In this document: piece after piece, positions 1,062-48,212 of the stretch
Layout of the letters: each line of letters starts with the position of its first letter
How positions within the stretch are numbered: position 1 is the stretch's first letter
Assembly: GCF_057098645.1 (NCBI RefSeq)
Contig: NZ_CM169472.1
Reading direction: 5' to 3' (one strand)
DNA: 64,000 nucleotides
Notes under the pieces: generated by a model
The model's database searches: none
What the model was told of the DNA's origin: nothing
The model's input: only the letters and a program-made list of their open reading frames with translations
Position numbers and translations under genes: made by a program

Positions 1062-1073
1062 CACGCTACCGCC
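1062..1073 (-). promoter_or_regulatory. ops element (GGCGGTAGCGTG) in the wza leader, RfaH recruitment site within a JUMPstart region
   Basis: Minus-strand sequence reads GGCGGTAGCGTG about 180 nt upstream of the wza start; matches the ops consensus GGCGGTAGnnTG. Confidence 0.6.
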
Positions 1074-1541
1074 CCTGGCTTTTTAGCTACCAATACACTG
1101 ATTTAGCTTAATTTTTCAAACCCTCTCTGCATACAATCGTTGATGAGAAAGGGTTATTGCGGAAATTAACTTCCGAATATAAGGTGACATTATGGTAATT
1201 GAATATTGGCTCTCCAATAATGCAGGAGGAAGTGTTACAGCTAACGGAATAGCAGGCAAGGTAACAATTCGGCAATTGGCTATTTTTAAGAATTATATTA
1301 AGTGTCATTCAATATGGTTTTTAGGAGTTTCTTTAGGTTGACAATATTTAATATTGCGTCTCCACATGCGATATTTCTTAAATAATGTTTTATTATTACC
1401 ACTTTTAATTCAGGGATAATGTGAGGTTATTACCCTCAAATAATATGAGATAAATAGTGCTGCAACATTGCATTTTTGCCCCGATTTATCCATGATCGAA
1501 TTGTGACATTTGTCATACAACGAATAGGTTTTGTACTTACT

Positions 1542-6924: not shown

Positions 6925-9900
6925 ATGAGCAAACAATCACAGCATGTATTAATTGCCCTGCCCCACCCGCTGCTTCACCTGGTCAGTTTAGGTTTAGTCT
7001 CGTTTATCTTTACCCTTTTCTCGCTTGAGCTTTCGCAGTTTGGCACCCAACTCGCCCCACTGTGGTTCCCGACGTCCATCATGATGGTGGCGTTTTATCG
7101 CCATGCCGGGCGCATGTGGCCGGGAATTGCGCTGAGCTGTTCGCTGGGAAATATCGCCGCATCCATCCTGCTTTTTTCCACCAGCTCGCTGAACATGACC
7201 TGGACGACCATCAATATTGTTGAAGCCGTGGTCGGGGCAGTGCTGCTACGTAAATTGCTGCCGTGGTATAACCCCTTGCAAAATCTGGCTGACTGGCTGC
7301 GTCTGGCACTCGGCAGCGCCATTGTTCCGCCTCTGTTGGGGGGTGTTCTGGTTGTCCTGCTGACGCCCGGAGACGATCCTCTCAGGGCATTTTTGATATG
7401 GGTACTGTCAGAATCCATCGGCGCTCTGGCACTGGTGCCGCTGGGATTGTTATTTAAACCACACTATCTGCTGCGCCATCGCAACCCACGGTTGCTTTTT
7501 GAGTCGCTGCTCACGTTAGCCATCACACTGACGTTAAGCTGGCTTTCGATGCTGTATCTGCCGTGGCCTTTTACTTTCATTATTGTGCTGTTGATGTGGA
7601 GCGCCGTGCGTCTGCCACGAATGGAAGCCTTTTTGATCTTCCTTACCACGGTGATGATGGTGTCGCTGATGATGGCCGCGGATCCCTCCCTGCTTGCTAC
7701 GCCGCGTACGTACCTGATGAGCCATATGCCGTGGCTACCGTTTTTGCTGATCCTGCTGCCCGCCAACATCATGACCATGGTGATGTATGCCTTTCGTGCG
7801 GAACGCAAACACATTTCCGAAAGCGAAACCCACTTTCGGAACGCGATGGAATATTCCGCTATCGGTATGGCGTTAGTGGGCACCGAGGGACAATGGCTGC
7901 AAACCAACAAAGCGCTCTGCCAGTTTCTCGGGTACAGTCAGGAAGAGCTGCGCGGACTCACCTTTCAGCAACTGACCTGGCCGGAGGATCTCAATAAAGA
8001 TCTCCAACAGGTTGAAAAGCTGATAAGCGGTGAAATAAACACCTATTCAATGGAAAAACGCTACTACAACCGCAATGGCGATGTTGTCTGGGCGTTGCTT
8101 GCCGTCTCACTGGTGCGCCACACGGATGGCACGCCGCTCTATTTTATCGCTCAGATTGAAGACATTAACGAGCTAAAACGCACCGAACAGGTCAATCAGC
8201 AACTGATGGAGCGCATCACGCTGGCTAACGAAGCGGGCGGGATTGGCATCTGGGAGTGGGAGTTGAAGCCGAATATTTTTAGCTGGGATAAGCGGATGTT
8301 CGAGCTGTATGAAATTCCTCCGCATATCAAACCGAACTGGCAGGTGTGGTACGAGTGTGTATTGCCGGAAGATCGCCAACACGCCGAAAAAGTGATTCGT
8401 GATTCGTTGCAATCACGCTCGCCCTTTAAGCTGGAATTTCGCATTGCCGTGAAAGATGGCATCCGCCATATCCGCGCCCTCGCCAACCGGGTACTGAATA
8501 AAGAAGGCGAAGTCGAACGCCTGCTCGGCATTAATATGGATATGACTGAGGTTAAACAGCTTAACGAGGCATTGTTTCAGGAAAAAGAGCGCCTGCACAT
8601 TACGCTTGATTCCATCGGTGAAGCCGTGGTCTGTATTGATATGGCGATGAAAATTACCTTTATGAATCCAGTGGCGGAGAAGATGAGCGGCTGGACGCAG
8701 GAAGAAGCGTTAGGTGTTCCGCTCCTGACGGTGTTGCATATTACTTTTGGCGACAACGGACCATTAATGGAGAACATTTACAGTGCCGACACCTCACGTT
8801 CCGCGATCGAGCAAGATGTGGTGTTGCACTGTCGGAGCGGCGGCAGTTACGACGTGCATTACTGTATTACGCCGTTAAGTACTCTGGACGGCAGCAATAT
8901 TGGTTCGGTTCTGGTGATTCAGGACGTTACCGAATCACGCAAAATGCTGCGCCAGCTGAGCTACAGCGCCTCCCATGATGCACTGACGCATCTCGCCAAC
9001 CGCGCCAGTTTTGAGAAACAACTGCGTATCCTGCTGCAAACGGTAAACAGTACACATCAGCGACATGCCCTGGTGTTTATCGATCTTGATCGCTTTAAAG
9101 CGGTGAATGACAGCGCCGGGCATGCGGCGGGTGACGCTTTGCTGCGCGAACTGGCGTCGTTAATGCTGAGTATGCTGCGTTCCAGCGACGTGCTGGCGCG
9201 ACTCGGTGGGGATGAATTTGGTCTGCTGCTACCAGACTGTAATGTTGAAAGCGCGCGTTTTATCGCTACACGCATTATCAGTGCCGTGAATGACTATCAC
9301 TTTATATGGGAAGGCCGTGTGCATCGGGTAGGTGCCAGTGCCGGGATTACCTTGATTGATGACAACAATCATCAGGCGGCAGAAGTGATGTCGCAGGCTG
9401 ATATCGCCTGTTATGCCTCCAAAAATGGTGGCCGGGGCCGGGTGACGGTTTACGAACCGCAGCAAGCTGCCGCACATAGCGAACGGGCGGCGATGTCGCT
9501 TGATGAACAGTGGCGGATGATTAAAGAGAATCAGTTGATGATGCTCGCCCACGGTGTCGCTTCGCCACGGATCCCGGAAGCGCGTAATTTGTGGCTGATT
9601 TCACTTAAGCTCTGGAGTTGCGAAGGCGAGATTATTGATGAACAAACATTTCGTCGTAGCTTCAGCGATCCGGCGCTTAGCCATGCTCTTGACCGCCGGG
9701 TATTCCACGAATTTTTCCAGCAGGCCGCAAAAGCGGTTGCCAGTAAAGGCATAAGCATCTCCCTCCCCCTTTCCGTTGCCGGTTTGAGTAGCGCCACGCT
9801 GGTGAATGATCTGCTTGAGCAGCTGGAAAATAGCCCTCTACCACCACGGTTATTACATCTGATTATTCCGGCTGAAGCGATTTTAGATCACGCAGAAAGC

Positions 9901-16044: not shown

Positions 16045-16227
16045 AAGAAATCCTTTCTTAGAGAATTATTGAGGTCCGGTATCATACCGATTGCAATAAT
16101 GAAATAAGAGCAAACGAAGAAACTTTCAGAATTAGGCCCGGCGGCGCAGAAAATTTTGCTATTCGCCTCGCAAGAACGGAGAGCCGTCGATTGACACTAA
16201 GGGCGGAGTGACATAATTACAGGAGTG

Positions 16228-16375
16228 AGGGTTAGGGAGAAGTTTCCCCCTCCCCCTGGTGTTCTTAGTAAGCCTGGAAGCTAATCACTAAGAGTATCAC
16301 CAGTATGATGACGTGCTTCATCATAACCCTTTCCTTATTTAAAAGCCCTCTTCTCCGGGAGAGGGTTCCCCGTTT
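16228..16375 (+). ncRNA. sibA: Sib antitoxin sRNA, copy 1 (boundaries approximate)
   Basis: Starts just downstream of TTGACA...TAATTA; fully antisense to ibs ORF 1; ends at hairpin ccctcttctccgggagaggg plus T-run. Confidence 0.55.
16265..16324 (-). CDS. ibsA: Ibs-type hydrophobic toxin peptide, copy 1 (MMKHVIILVILLVISFQAY)
   Basis: 19-codon ORF with tandem ATG start and strongly hydrophobic sequence typical of Ibs toxins. Confidence 0.6.
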   Translation of the reverse strand: MMKHVIILVILLVISFQAY

Positions 16376-16556
16376 TAGCGTCCCGCTGAAATCGTCGGCT
16401 TACCTCCTTTCGCCCTGAATGCAGTCTATCGCTGACTTGCGGATAAAATAGTTTCAAGTGTGATTATTGCGTAACGACTCGCAAAGAATATTTGCTGGCA
16501 GGATCGCAGACTGCAAAGCCTGCAGATTGACAATCTTATCGTGAAGGCATACTTTC

Positions 16557-16703
16557 AGGAGTGAGGGTAGAGCGGGGTTTCCCCCGCCCTGGTAGTCTTA
16601 GTAAGCGGGGAAGCTTATGACTAAGAGCACCACGATGATGAGTAGCTTCATCATGACCCTTTCCTTATTTAAGGCCCCTTCCTCGGGAGGGGCTTTCCCG
16701 TTT
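16557..16703 (+). ncRNA. sibB: Sib antitoxin sRNA, copy 2 (boundaries approximate)
   Basis: Promoter TTGACA-N17-TACTTT; antisense to ibs ORF 2; terminator hairpin plus T-run. Confidence 0.55.
16598..16654 (-). CDS. ibsB: Ibs-type toxin peptide, copy 2 (MMKLLIIVVLLVISFPAY)
   Basis: 18-codon hydrophobic ORF antisense to Sib copy 2. Confidence 0.6.
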   Translation of the reverse strand: MMKLLIIVVLLVISFPAY

Positions 16704-16884
16704 CAGCGTCCCGCTGAAATCTTCGGCTTACCTCCTTTCGCCCTGTATGCAGTCTATCGCTGACTTGCGGATAAAATAGTTTCAAGTGTGATTATTGCGT
16801 AACGACTCGCAAAGAATATTTGCTGGCAGGATCGCAGACTGCAAAGCCTGCAGATTGACAATCTTATCGTGAAGGCATACTTTC

Positions 16885-17031
16885 AGGAGTGAGGGTAGAG
16901 CGGGGTTTCCCCCGCCCTGGTAGTCTTAGTATGCTGGGTAGCTAATCACTAAGAGCACCACGATGATGAGTATCTTCATCATGACCCTTTCCTTATTTAT
17001 GGCCCCTTCCTCGGGAGGGGCTTTCCCGTTT
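16885..17031 (+). ncRNA. Sib antitoxin sRNA, copy 3 (boundaries approximate)
   Basis: Third repeat of the promoter/sRNA/terminator block. Confidence 0.5.
16926..16982 (-). CDS. Ibs-type toxin peptide, copy 3 (MMKILIIVVLLVISYPAY)
   Basis: 18-codon hydrophobic ORF in the third repeat; two residue differences from copy 2. Confidence 0.55.
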   Translation of the reverse strand: MMKILIIVVLLVISYPAY

Positions 17032-30274: not shown

Positions 30275-30358
30275 TTAATTTCGATTATTTTTCCCGGATG
30301 GAAAATTCTTAGAAACCGATCACATACAGCTGCATTTATTAAGGTTATCATCCGTTTC

Positions 30359-30445
30359 GCTGAAAAACATAACCCATAAAATGCTAGCTGTACCAGGAAC
30401 CACCTCCTTAGCCTGTGTAATCTCCCTTACACGGGCTTATTTTTT
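30359..30445 (+). ncRNA. cyaR: CyaR (RyeE) Hfq-dependent sRNA
   Basis: gctgaaaaacataacccataaaatgctagctgtaccaggaaccacctccttagcctgtgtaatctcccttacacgggcttattttttt: CCUCCU anti-SD seed, then terminator hairpin gcctgtgtaa/ttacacgggc plus U-tract; CRP half-site-like TCACA upstream. Confidence 0.75.
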
Positions 30446-45521: not shown

Positions 45522-46340
45522 TTAAGGCGTTTCTTTAATCCCATCAACGAATGCCTGCAACTCCTCCACCGTGCCATTAAATACATTAAAATCCACCGGA
45601 CCATTGATGCCATCTACCTGTCCACGGTCGGAATGCTGCCAGAAGCGCCAGGCCATTCCGTCATTGTCCGGACGACGTTGATAGTAGTGAGCCACCCACC
45701 ACGGATATTCATTGAAATAGCCCGCCAGATTGGTGTGATAAAAAACGGCTCCTGAGTAAATAATCGGCTTTTTCCCCGTACTTTTTTCGACCATTTTTAG
45801 CCACTGACTTACCCGCTTGCGTAATTCTTTTGCCGATAATTTTCCCCGTTCTTCTACGTCCAGCACGGCAGGGAAATCGCCTTGTGAGAAATCCACCGTT
45901 TGCAGAAATAATCTCGCCTGAACTGAAGCGGATACCGACGGGGAGAAATAATGATACGCCCCACGCAGCAGGCCATTTTCGCGGCTTAGTTGCCAGTTAC
46001 GCGAAAAATAGGGGTCCACCAGCTTTTCGCCTTCCGTCGCCTTAATAAAAGCAAACTGTAAGCGGATACCGTTGTCGCGCATTTTTGCCACCCGCTGCCA
46101 GTCGATCCGCTCCTGCCAGCGCGAAACATCTATTCCGTGAATGGTGTAACTGGCAGGAATGCGAATAGCGAAAGATTTAACCGGGCGATAACCGTAGAAG
46201 TGGATGTAGTCTGTAATCTGAACTGCTGTCGAATAGAAAAAATTCACCGTCTGACGCGGATAAATTGCAACGATGGAAATTAGCCCAAGAGCGCATAATA
46301 GAGAGGTGAGTTTTTTTCGACTGGTAATTCTTAGCTGCAT
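45522..46340 (-). CDS. yegX: Glycoside hydrolase family 25 (lysozyme/muramidase-like) protein with N-terminal membrane anchor
   Basis: ORF 45522..46349 (start uncertain); hydrophobic N-terminus LTSLLCALGLISIVAIY followed by GH25-like domain (IHGIDVSRWQ...). Confidence 0.75.
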   Translation of the reverse strand: MQLRITSRKKLTSLLCALGLISIVAIYPRQTVNFFYSTAVQITDYIHFYGYRPVKSFAIRIPASYTIHGIDVSRWQERIDWQRVAKMRDNGIRLQFAFIKATEGEKLVDPYFSRNWQLSRENGLLRGAYHYFSPSVSASVQARLFLQTVDFSQGDFPAVLDVEERGKLSAKELRKRVSQWLKMVEKSTGKKPIIYSGAVFYHTNLAGYFNEYPWWVAHYYQRRPDNDGMAWRFWQHSDRGQVDGINGPVDFNVFNGTVEELQAFVDGIKETP

Positions 46341-46404
46341 TGGTTTCATCCCTGAATGTCAGTGCCAAAGGCTGACAATAACCAAAGCAGCTATAGTACG
46401 GTGC

Positions 46405-47994: not shown

Positions 47995-48118
47995 TGCTCC
48001 TGCCATAACGTGAAGAAGCAATGACCTGGTGGTCCGTGACTTCCCTACGCTGGCATTATCCAGATCAGGTGATACGGGTATTTCTCAGCCTTCACGCAGA
48101 AGGGCACCCCGAGTCGTT
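47995..48118 (-). promoter_or_regulatory. TPP (THI-box) riboswitch in the thiM 5' leader
   Basis: Minus-strand leader reads ...ggggtgcccttctgcgtgaaggctgagaaatacccgtatcacctgatctggataatgccagcgtagggaa..., the conserved THI-element core (CUGAGA, ACCUGAUCUGGAUAAUGCCAGCG). Confidence 0.8.
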
Positions 48119-48212
48119 TGGTTGCGATGATAAATCGCAGAGGAGGATGGTAATGTCCAGCGCACGCGTTGTAAACGAGGAAAAACGGCAGTTTTACAAT
48201 CGCGTTAATAAA

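What the first reader, a model, noticed from the sequence alone, without database searches (positions are those of the whole stretch)
45522..46340. Membrane-anchored GH25-type muramidase-like protein YegX next to the thiamine genes
A hydrophobic N-terminal segment is followed by a lysozyme/GH25-like domain. A chromosomal, non-prophage GH25 enzyme with a membrane anchor could be a peptidoglycan-remodelling or competition factor.
Basis: inference. Interest (0 to 1): 0.25.

Follow-up and report, generated by a model that had tools for sequence, protein, structure and literature searches.

The report
E. coli yegX, membrane-anchored GH25 lysozyme
This is the already-annotated E. coli core gene yegX, which encodes a lysozyme-type (GH25) cell-wall hydrolase tethered to the inner membrane; the description is correct but ordinary, and the enzyme's physiological role has not been tested.

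Summary
Window 45522-46340 (- strand) is E. coli yegX, 272 aa. RefSeq annotates it as "glycoside hydrolase family 25 protein", and it is present in 5424 of 5426 complete E. coli genomes. It matches the whole Pfam GH25 profile (E = 9.5e-55). An AlphaFold model (pLDDT 90) superposes on solved GH25 lysozymes. The catalytic D-x-E motif (D161, E163) and the supporting D71 and D250 are invariant in 51 relatives. The N-terminus has a basic tail and one hydrophobic helix, with no lipobox and no conserved signal-peptidase site, so it is probably an uncleaved N-in/C-out anchor. This architecture is shared by the whole subfamily.

The gene is under purifying selection (dN/dS about 0.1) and sits among metabolic genes (thiMD, yegW/ggaR), not in a prophage. 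It has no holin, secretion-system or immunity neighbour, so the "competition factor" idea is unsupported.

Two observations go beyond the existing annotation. Among enterobacteria I found it only in Escherichia/Shigella and some Salmonella. Its other close relatives are an uncultured Chromobacteriaceae-like lineage and many Bacteroidota, which suggests old horizontal transfer.

I found no functional study of YegX. Verdict: already known, low interest.

The parts
45522..46340 (-). yegX coding sequence (272 aa plus stop), a GH25 family protein
   Evidence: ORF list. RefSeq annotation of the identical sequence. Pfam PF01183 at E = 9.5e-55. dN/dS 0.08-0.11 against E. albertii and a second Escherichia lineage.
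46341..46353 (-). Translation-initiation region: AGGGA Shine-Dalgarno (46349-46353) 8 nt upstream of the annotated ATG. The in-frame upstream ATG (46347-46349) would add MKP, but it overlaps the SD and is probably not used.
   Evidence: Read directly from the sequence. RefSeq start at MQL.
46257..46319 (-). Codons for residues 8-28: a single transmembrane helix that follows the basic tail R4/R8/K9/K10. Predicted to be an uncleaved signal-anchor with the N-terminus in the cytoplasm.
   Evidence: KD hydropathy 1.75, no lipobox, single non-conserved Cys16. AlphaFold helix 8-26. All 51 family members have a basic tail plus a TM segment (KD >= 1.75), and no small residues are conserved at positions -1/-3.
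46134..46256 (-). Codons for residues 29-69: a juxtamembrane helix (28-47) and two short strands that lead into the barrel. Y51, I59 and P62 are conserved across the family; F57 is conserved in the smaller sets.
   Evidence: AlphaFold secondary structure, pLDDT 73-92 in this stretch. Conservation in alignments A1-A3. Median distance from the TM segment to the HGID motif is 35 residues across the family.
45606..46133 (-). Codons for residues 70-245: the GH25 catalytic barrel
   Evidence: Pfam match covering the whole profile. PDB sequence hits 2wag (E = 9.5e-33) and 1jfx (E = 4.2e-27). Foldseek TM-score 0.79-0.85 normalised to the target for 2wag, 1jfx and 4kru.
46128..46130 (-). Codon of Asp71 (G-I-D-V-S motif), an active-site acid at the N-terminus of the barrel
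   Evidence: GAT read directly. Invariant in 51 sequences. Aligned with the equivalent Asp of 2wag and 4kru.
45852..45860 (-). Codons of Asp161-Val162-Glu163, the GH25 catalytic DXE motif
   Evidence: GAC GTA GAA read directly. D161 and E163 are invariant in 51 sequences. Aligned with the DVE of 2wag and the DIE of 4kru. The DXE motif is described as the catalytic pair in PMC7954357.
45591..45593 (-). Codon of Asp250 (V-D-F-N-V-F motif), a conserved C-terminal active-site acid
   Evidence: GAT read directly. D250, N252 and F254 are invariant.

Best explanation
yegX encodes a catalytically competent GH25 (Chalaropsis-type) N-acetylmuramidase. A single uncleaved N-terminal transmembrane helix holds it on the periplasmic face of the inner membrane, with the N-terminus in the cytoplasm and the catalytic barrel in the periplasm. 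There it would hydrolyse MurNAc-beta-1,4-GlcNAc bonds of the cell's own peptidoglycan, using the D161-x-E163 pair helped by D71 and D250. Because the tether is short (one roughly 20-residue helix), the likely substrates are membrane-proximal glycan strands or turnover material. It would be a non-essential housekeeping hydrolase, not a phage lysis enzyme or a weapon. What is shown: family membership, fold, intact active site, purifying selection, a subfamily-wide membrane-anchor architecture, and a non-phage context. What is inferred: the topology, the substrate and the physiological role. The gene appears to have entered an ancestor of Escherichia and Salmonella by horizontal transfer from a family that is otherwise mainly in Bacteroidota.
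For: Family and fold:
- Pfam GH25 at E = 9.5e-55 over the full profile.
- PDB sequence matches to characterised GH25 lysozymes, with the catalytic motifs aligned.
- AlphaFold pLDDT 90.2 and pTM 0.81.
- Foldseek top 19 PDB hits are all GH25 enzymes, with TM-score up to 0.85.
- D71, D161, E163 and D250 are invariant in 51 relatives. DXE is the catalytic motif according to PMC7954357.

Anchor:
- Basic tail plus a helix with KD 1.75, and no lipobox.
- The same architecture in all 51 relatives, with a median net N-terminal charge of +12 and no conserved cleavage motif.

Functional gene:
- dN/dS 0.08-0.11.
- Present in 5424 of 5426 complete E. coli genomes.

Not phage:
- All neighbours are metabolic or regulatory genes.
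- The best phage-database identity is 40%, on an unannotated faecal contig. The best viral structures are at most 31% identical.

Transcription:
- An RNA polymerase sigma-70 holoenzyme binding site is reported in the thiD/yegX spacer (PMC3946193).
- YegW/GgaR, encoded next door, binds only the yegTUV promoter region (PMC10819704).

Horizontal origin:
- Close homologues are restricted to Escherichia/Shigella and some Salmonella, an uncultured Chromobacteriaceae-like lineage, and many Bacteroidota.
- In a neighbour-joining tree the proteobacterial sequences form one clade in 92 of 100 bootstraps, and Bacteroidota are monophyletic in only 8 of 100.
- GC content is 48.1%, against 51-56% for the flanking genes.
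Against: - No enzymatic, localisation or clear phenotypic data for YegX were found. The only reports are weak Keio-screen sensitivities to boric acid and epetraborole and a 2.3-fold induction in ground beef.
- To my knowledge, E. coli glycan strands end in 1,6-anhydroMurNAc, the product of lytic transglycosylases. A hydrolytic muramidase would leave reducing MurNAc ends, which are not a recognised feature of E. coli peptidoglycan. Activity in vivo must therefore be low, conditional, or directed at a minor substrate.
- The YegX helix is the least hydrophobic of the 51 examined. Cleavage after V25-A26, or release from the membrane, cannot be excluded by sequence.
- The consensus scan found no promoter-like or terminator-like site in the gaps on either side of yegX, so the transcription unit is not defined.
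Confidence: 0.6

Rival explanations
1. The gene is a remnant or domesticated phage endolysin of the SAR (signal-arrest-release) type. The weakly hydrophobic N-terminal helix holds the enzyme inactive in the membrane, and the enzyme is released into the periplasm when the membrane is depolarised, causing autolysis.
For: PHROG endolysin families match (phrog_291 at E = 1e-46, phrog_6219 at E = 5e-38). GH25 is a common endolysin family. The YegX helix contains 7 small or polar residues out of 17 (T, S, C, A, G, S, A) and has the lowest hydropathy of the family.
Against: There is no holin, pinholin, spanin or any other phage gene within the annotated 17 kb. The nearest phage-database sequence is only 40% identical, while cellular relatives reach 45-58% over the full length. 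Orthologues in Bacteroidota and in the Chromobacteriaceae-like lineage sit in housekeeping chromosomal contexts, and most have strongly hydrophobic helices with KD around 2.0-2.5. The gene is under purifying selection and is core to the species.
Confidence: 0.08
2. The protein is an interbacterial competition factor, a lysozyme delivered to or released onto rival bacteria.
For: GH25 lysozymes are used as antibacterial weapons and have moved horizontally across the domains of life (PMC4241558; PMC12626018). The family shows a patchy, transfer-like distribution.
Against: The protein has an inner-membrane anchor and no cleavable export signal or effector-delivery domain. Neither the E. coli locus nor any of 81 related loci has a secretion-system, PAAR, VgrG, Rhs or CDI gene, or an immunity gene. 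The 51-nt and 64-nt flanking gaps leave no room for an immunity gene.
Confidence: 0.04
3. The protein is a soluble periplasmic (signal-peptide-cleaved) GH25 muramidase rather than a tethered one. The catalysis is the same, but the enzyme could diffuse freely to reach the sacculus.
For: The N-terminus has the n-region and h-region layout of a Sec signal. The sequence I24-V25-A26 | I27 could be a weak signal-peptidase I site (read from the sequence).
Against: There is no polar c-region. The residues at the would-be -1/-3 positions are not conserved in relatives (VAIY, IAVY, VAVY, CIVYY, SPFYY). The long, highly basic N-tails of relatives (up to 18 K/R) and helices of 19 or more residues are typical of signal anchors. 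Earlier annotation describes it as 'membrane-bound hydrolase'.
Confidence: 0.15
4. The protein is a GH25-fold protein that does not act on the cell's own mature sacculus. It would instead cleave another substrate: imported or foreign peptidoglycan fragments, lipid-linked nascent strands, or another MurNAc/GlcNAc-containing polymer.
For: Reducing-end muropeptides are not a recognised feature of E. coli peptidoglycan (my knowledge). The tether is short, with one helix (residues 28-47) between the membrane and the barrel. The family is widespread in Bacteroidota, several of which scavenge peptidoglycan (context only: bioRxiv 10.1101/2021.12.02.470905).
Against: To my knowledge of CAZy, every biochemically characterised GH25 member is a peptidoglycan muramidase (consistent with PMC7954357). 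The active-site residues are fully conserved. No transporter or salvage gene is consistently linked.
Confidence: 0.12

Closest known systems
Characterised bacterial GH25 lysozymes: Cellosyl from Streptomyces coelicolor (PDB 1JFX) and BaGH25c from Bacillus anthracis (PDB 2WAG)
   Same: [quoted passage not shown]
   Different: The crystallised chains (217-220 residues) are essentially the catalytic domain alone, and to my knowledge these enzymes are secreted by Gram-positive bacteria. YegX is from a Gram-negative bacterium and adds a basic tail, a transmembrane helix and a conserved linker of about 35 residues. Its activity has not been measured.
GH25 phage endolysins (e.g. Clostridium phage phiSM101 Psm, PDB 4KRT/4KRU; Geobacillus phage TP-84 endolysin)
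   Same: Homologous catalytic domain: 30-37% identity, E = 1.3e-28 for 4kru, and matches to PHROG endolysin families.
   Different: Endolysins sit in lysis cassettes and usually carry C-terminal wall-binding modules. YegX has neither: it is a core chromosomal gene between thiD and yegW, and it has an N-terminal membrane helix instead.
MltG (YceG) of E. coli, an inner-membrane-anchored glycan-strand terminase
   Same: The predicted topology is the same: a single N-terminal transmembrane helix with a periplasmic glycan-cleaving domain held close to the inner membrane. This is a comparison of how it may work, drawn from my knowledge of MltG.
   Different: The fold and chemistry are unrelated. MltG is a YceG-family lytic transglycosylase that makes 1,6-anhydroMurNAc ends, whereas YegX is a GH25 hydrolase expected to leave reducing MurNAc. 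No Pfam family other than GH25 matched YegX. No functional link has been tested.
The YegX-like subfamily in Bacteroidota (Pedobacter, Mucilaginibacter, Solitalea, Chitinophagaceae, Bacteroidaceae, Prevotella), annotated only as 'glycoside hydrolase family 25 protein' or 'lysozyme'
   Same: Full-length relatives at 41-55% identity with the identical architecture: basic tail, transmembrane helix, linker of about 35 residues, GH25 barrel. All catalytic residues are the same, and the genes stand alone in the chromosome.
   Different: They have longer and far more basic N-terminal tails (12-18 K/R against 3-4) and more hydrophobic helices. They are not next to thiamine genes. No source name or paper I saw indicates that any of them has been characterised.

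Membership tests
Glycoside hydrolase family 25 (CAZy GH25; Pfam PF01183) | Significant match to the family profile over its whole length | tested here: met
   PF01183 at E = 9.5e-55, 186 bits against a cut-off of 27, profile positions 1-180 of 180, residues 70-245.
Glycoside hydrolase family 25 (CAZy GH25; Pfam PF01183) | [quoted passage not shown] | tested here: met
   AlphaFold model with pLDDT 90.2. The Foldseek top 19 PDB hits are all GH25 structures: 2wag TM-score 0.85 and rmsd 2.2 A, 1jfx TM-score 0.79. This rests on a predicted structure, not a solved one.
Glycoside hydrolase family 25 (CAZy GH25; Pfam PF01183) | Catalytic D-x-E motif | tested here: met
   D161-V-E163 is present, aligned to the DVE of 2wag and the DIE of 4kru, and invariant in 51 relatives. 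The motif is defined in PMC7954357.
Glycoside hydrolase family 25 (CAZy GH25; Pfam PF01183) | Supporting acidic residues at the first strand (Cellosyl Asp9 equivalent) and near the C-terminus (D-x-N-x-F) | tested here: met
   D71 in GIDVS and D250 in VDFNVF are both invariant. The roles of these residues are recalled from the Cellosyl and Cpl-1 literature and were not checked here.
Glycoside hydrolase family 25 (CAZy GH25; Pfam PF01183) | N-acetylmuramidase activity on peptidoglycan | not testable with these tools
   No biochemical report on YegX was found in the paper library.
SAR (signal-arrest-release) phage endolysins | Gene lies in a phage lysis cassette with holin or pinholin and spanin genes | tested here: not met
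   The neighbours are yegW, thiD, thiM, rcnR and yegTUV, and no phage genes appear in the 17-kb annotation. Related loci are in housekeeping contexts.
SAR (signal-arrest-release) phage endolysins | Weakly hydrophobic, Gly/Ala/Ser-rich N-terminal helix able to leave the membrane | tested here: inconclusive
   The helix has KD 1.75 (the lowest of 51 relatives) and 7 of 17 small or polar residues, while most relatives have KD 2.0-2.5. Whether the helix can leave the membrane cannot be judged from sequence.
Bacterial lipoproteins | Lipobox [LVI][ASTVI][GAS]C at the end of the signal sequence | tested here: not met
   No lipobox match. The only cysteine, Cys16, is preceded by Leu-Leu and is not conserved in relatives.
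Contact-dependent or secreted antibacterial muramidase effectors (T6SS Tge-type and similar) | Adjacent cognate immunity gene and linkage to secretion or delivery genes | tested here: not met
   The flanking gaps are 51 and 64 nt, with no small ORF between genes. The annotation shows no secretion genes. No neighbour family is conserved across 81 loci.

The most novel reading that the evidence does not exclude
YegX and its Bacteroidota and Chromobacteriaceae-like relatives form a distinct, uncharacterised class of inner-membrane-tethered hydrolytic muramidases. They would act at the membrane surface on nascent, lipid-linked or un-cross-linked glycan strands, as a hydrolytic counterpart of the MltG terminase, rather than on the mature sacculus. 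That would make YegX the missing 'true lysozyme' in the E. coli peptidoglycan-hydrolase inventory, acquired by horizontal transfer from Bacteroidota.
Probability: 0.12. Interest if true: 0.55.

Novelty: already known. Interest (0 to 1): 0.18.

Why it matters
The finding as stated adds nothing to existing annotation. RefSeq already calls yegX a GH25 protein, and papers quoting existing annotation call it a putative glycosyl hydrolase and a putative membrane-bound hydrolase.

It does point to a modest gap. E. coli peptidoglycan cleavage is normally attributed to lytic transglycosylases. Yet a conserved, selectively maintained hydrolytic lysozyme sits in nearly every E. coli genome with no assigned role, and in the open-access library searched only one paper contains both 'yegX' and 'peptidoglycan'.

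If YegX is active, it would produce reducing-end muropeptides, and it could matter for glycan-strand length control, turnover, or release of immunostimulatory fragments. Its patchy distribution, with a large Bacteroidota family sharing the same anchor, also adds one more case of lysozyme gene transfer between phyla.

Tried and rejected
- NCBIfam gave no hit for YegX.
- The consensus promoter/terminator scan found nothing in the thiD-yegX or yegX-yegW gaps on the minus strand. The few sites found were no more than expected from shuffled sequence. By eye, the spacer has a TTGTCA -35-like hexamer with no matching -10, and a TGGCAC-N5-TTCA that lacks the sigma-54 -12 GC. I treat neither as a promoter.
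- Literature searches for yegX, b2102, and GH25 with Gram-negative or membrane-anchored terms found no characterisation. Most 'yegX' hits were chance strings in unrelated medical papers.
- Conserved-neighbour analysis over 81 related loci found no partner. The largest 'families' were antisense ORFs inside the GH25 gene itself, or lineage-specific neighbours such as UvrD (12 loci) and a probable M20 peptidase, assigned by position and N-terminal sequence (9 loci).
- A thiamine connection was considered because yegX abuts thiMD in both Escherichia and Salmonella. I rejected it as functional evidence because the gene is on opposite sides of thiMD in the two genera and is not near thiamine genes in any other lineage.
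- Regulation by the adjacent YegW/GgaR was considered. Published ChIP-chip shows binding only in the yegTUV promoter region (fbaB/yegT spacer and within yegT), and the paper does not mention yegX.
- phrog_23704 (E = 5e-83) looked like a phage link. It is a 134-aa family of unknown function that matches only the C-terminal 120 residues of YegX, and is most likely a host gene fragment swept into prophage predictions.
- The AFDB Foldseek library was unavailable.

Full report
**1. What is there**

The minus strand of the window carries an ORF at 45522-46349 (275 aa). RefSeq uses this start for the 100%-identical gene yegX, annotated "glycoside hydrolase family 25 protein". An AGGGA Shine-Dalgarno at 46349-46353 lies 8 nt upstream of this ATG and overlaps the alternative upstream ATG, so the annotated start is the better one.

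The locus is the E. coli yegTUV | yegW-yegX-thiD-thiM | rcnR-rcnA region. The TPP riboswitch lies upstream of thiM at 48025-48121. A 1.3-kb query spanning the gene matches 5424 of 5426 complete E. coli genomes, and 5411 of them over at least 80% of its length.

**2. Is it a GH25 enzyme with an intact active site?**

Yes, on four lines of evidence.

- Residues 70-245 match the entire Pfam Glyco_hydro_25 profile at E = 9.5e-55.
- Sequence search of the PDB finds only GH25 lysozymes and endolysins. The best are B. anthracis 2WAG (E = 9.5e-33), Clostridium phage Psm 4KRU/4KRT, and Cellosyl 1JFX (E = 4.2e-27). The printed alignments place YegX G-I-D71-V-S and D161-V-E163 opposite the equivalent motifs of 2WAG and 4KRU.
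- An AlphaFold2 model built on a 51-sequence alignment has mean pLDDT 90.2 and pTM 0.81. Its Foldseek matches in the PDB are GH25 structures for the first 19 ranks, with TM-scores up to 0.85 normalised to the target.
- D71, D161, E163 and D250 (in V-D-F-N-V-F) are invariant across 51 relatives. The D-x-E pair is the catalytic motif of the family according to PMC7954357.

**3. The N-terminal segment**

Residues 1-10 carry four basic residues (R4, R8, K9, K10). Residues 10-28 form the only strongly hydrophobic stretch, with KD 1.75, and AlphaFold models residues 8-26 as a helix.

There is no lipobox. The single cysteine, C16, is preceded by Leu-Leu and is not conserved. The positions that would need small residues for signal-peptidase I cleavage vary among relatives: VAIY, IAVY, VAVY, CIVYY, SPFYY.

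All 51 family members examined have a basic tail (median net charge +12), a hydrophobic helix (KD 1.75-2.48), about 35 residues from the end of that segment to the HGID motif, and then the barrel. The conserved feature is therefore a helix obeying the positive-inside rule, not a cleavage site. I infer an uncleaved N-in/C-out signal anchor. This agrees with an earlier annotation, 'putative membrane-bound hydrolase'. The E. coli helix is the least hydrophobic of the set, so processing or release cannot be excluded.

**4. Is the gene functional, and is it of phage origin?**

dN/dS is 0.08 against E. albertii (dS 0.86) and 0.11 against a second Escherichia lineage (dS 0.37), which indicates clear purifying selection. 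Comparisons with E. fergusonii and Salmonella are saturated at synonymous sites. YegX evolves about four times faster at the protein level than its neighbours: dN to Salmonella is 0.228, against 0.063 for thiD and 0.047 for yegW.

The gene is occasionally lost. IS1, IS903B and ISApl1 insertions split it in some complete genomes, and truncated forms are common in Shigella.

No phage gene is annotated within 17 kb. The closest sequence in the phage collection is 40% identical, on an unannotated 5.6-kb human-faecal contig, and named phage endolysins are at most 37-38% identical over the catalytic domain only. The best viral predicted structures are at most 31% identical. Cellular relatives are closer (section 5). 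The gaps to thiD (64 nt) and yegW (51 nt) leave no room for a small immunity gene.

**5. Where else the family occurs**

Homologues above 60% identity are confined to two groups:

- Escherichia and Shigella: E. albertii 89-90%, E. fergusonii 76%.
- A cluster at 67% identity from Salmonella enterica, named as subsp. indica, subsp. salamae and some subsp. enterica.

In Salmonella the gene lies between rcnB and the TPP riboswitch/thiM, on the other side of thiMD from its E. coli position. In E. fergusonii, two DUF6493 genes and a SWIM-domain gene follow it instead of yegW. In E. albertii an 846-aa ORF occupies the same position.

The next relatives (54-58% identity) are on metagenomic contigs beside fnr-like and hemN genes. 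The DnaB on one such contig is 83-85% identical to those of Crenobacter and Vogesella, which points to an uncultured Chromobacteriaceae-like betaproteobacterium.

Nearly all other named hits (about 41-55% identity, full length, same architecture) are Bacteroidota: Solitalea, Pedobacter, Mucilaginibacter, Chitinophagaceae, Bacteroidaceae and Prevotella.

A neighbour-joining tree of the catalytic domain, rooted with 2WAG and 4KRU, gives the following support in 100 bootstraps: enterobacterial sequences monophyletic in 99, all proteobacterial sequences monophyletic in 92, and Bacteroidota monophyletic in only 8. The proteobacterial clade therefore nests among Bacteroidota. yegX is also slightly AT-richer than its flanks, at 48.1% GC against 51-56%.

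I read this as old horizontal acquisition from a family that is mainly in Bacteroidota.

No neighbouring gene is conserved across 81 related loci. Context therefore gives no clue to function, and the thiamine adjacency looks positional rather than functional.

**6. How it most likely works**

Shown: a GH25 domain with a complete active site, maintained by selection and attached to a conserved membrane helix.

Inferred: the domain faces the periplasm and hydrolyses MurNAc-beta-1,4-GlcNAc bonds of peptidoglycan.

Only one helix (residues 28-47) and two short strands separate the membrane helix from the barrel. The enzyme is therefore probably held close to the inner membrane. Nascent or un-cross-linked strands, or turnover fragments, seem more plausible substrates than the distal sacculus. 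This step is speculation.

To my knowledge, E. coli glycan strands terminate in anhydroMurNAc, the product of lytic transglycosylases. Any hydrolytic activity must therefore be minor or conditional.

On expression, a sigma-70 holoenzyme SELEX site is reported in the thiD/yegX spacer (PMC3946193). My consensus scan found no promoter-like or terminator-like site in either flanking gap, so read-through from thiMD cannot be excluded. The adjacent regulator YegW/GgaR binds only the yegTUV promoter region (PMC10819704).

Reported phenotypes are limited to three items: low-level boric-acid sensitivity, delayed growth on epetraborole for the Keio mutant, and a 2.3-fold induction of the EHEC gene in ground beef. 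One thermally evolved clone carried a mutation in the yegX/thiD spacer.

**7. Rivals**

- *SAR-endolysin remnant.* Possible only on the basis of the modest hydrophobicity of the helix. Contradicted by the context, the conservation and the family's chromosomal distribution.
- *Competition factor.* No delivery or immunity genes, and the protein carries an anchor.
- *Cleaved soluble periplasmic enzyme.* Cannot be excluded, but is disfavoured by the lack of a conserved cleavage site.
- *Non-sacculus substrate.* Open.

**8. Comparison with what is known, and verdict**

YegX meets every computationally testable criterion for GH25 membership. It fails the context criterion for SAR endolysins, and the criteria for lipoproteins and for secreted effectors. 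Functionally it may resemble MltG in placement, though not in chemistry.

The finding restates an existing annotation, so I rate it 'already known' and of low interest. Two things are worth recording beyond the annotation. The membrane-anchored architecture defines a coherent subfamily that I found uncharacterised and that is shared with Bacteroidota. And E. coli's one predicted true lysozyme still lacks any experimental study in the literature I could search.

Noticed in passing
window 16191-16997 (+): Three tandem full-length Sib antitoxin sRNA copies (Rfam RF00113, 141-145 bits each). By my recollection E. coli K-12 has two at this locus (sibA, sibB), so this strain may carry an extra Ibs/Sib toxin-antitoxin repeat.
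   Followed up: no
L002 8001-8807 (Salmonella enterica contig), riboswitch at 9002-9098: The Salmonella yegX homologue (67% identity; subsp. indica, subsp. salamae and some subsp. enterica) lies between rcnB and the TPP riboswitch/thiM. This is the opposite side of thiMD from its E. coli position, and this locus lacks rcnR and rcnA.
   Followed up: partly
L003 2631-9226 (E. fergusonii) and L007 6902-9442 (E. albertii): In E. fergusonii, yegX is followed by two ORFs of 856 and 894 aa (Pfam DUF6493/DUF7824/DUF7825) and a SWIM-domain protein instead of yegW. In E. albertii an 846-aa ORF occupies the same position, but its family was not checked. This looks like an uncharacterised inserted gene set.
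   Followed up: no
L004 8001-8855, L005 3049-3894, L006 3446-4300: YegX-like genes at 54-58% identity lie next to fnr-like and hemN genes in an uncultured Chromobacteriaceae-like betaproteobacterium (DnaB 83-85% identical to Crenobacter and Vogesella). They are the closest non-enterobacterial relatives found.
   Followed up: partly
window 44724-44750: The convergent genes yegV (+, ends at 44750) and yegW/ggaR (-, ends at 44724) overlap by 27 nt at their 3' ends.
   Followed up: no
complete E. coli genomes NZ_AP027676.1, NZ_CP135649.1 and NZ_CP104788.1 (hits H1-H3): yegX is split by IS1X2, IS903B or ISApl1 insertions in these strains, and truncated yegX products are frequent in Shigella. The gene is dispensable in some lineages.
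   Followed up: partly
window 45525-45884 (YegX residues 153-272): PHROG family phrog_23704 (134 aa, 'unknown function') matches only the C-terminal 120 residues of YegX, at E = 5e-83. It is probably a fragment of this host gene captured in prophage predictions rather than a phage protein.
   Followed up: no
window 30357-30442 (+), 40100-40170 (-), 1062-1100 (-): CyaR sRNA, a naRNA4 (REP-derived nucleoid-associated RNA) element and a JUMPstart element were detected at Rfam gathering thresholds. All are expected features of this E. coli region.
   Followed up: no
L087 3138-3962 and 6001-6861 (Solitalea lacus): Two GH25 paralogues lie 2 kb apart, the first directly downstream of an M20 peptidase gene. 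An M20 peptidase also precedes the YegX-like gene in L004. A probable M20-peptidase cluster (assigned by position and N-terminal sequence, not by a Pfam scan) recurs in 9 of 81 loci, which is too few to call a conserved partnership.
   Followed up: partly
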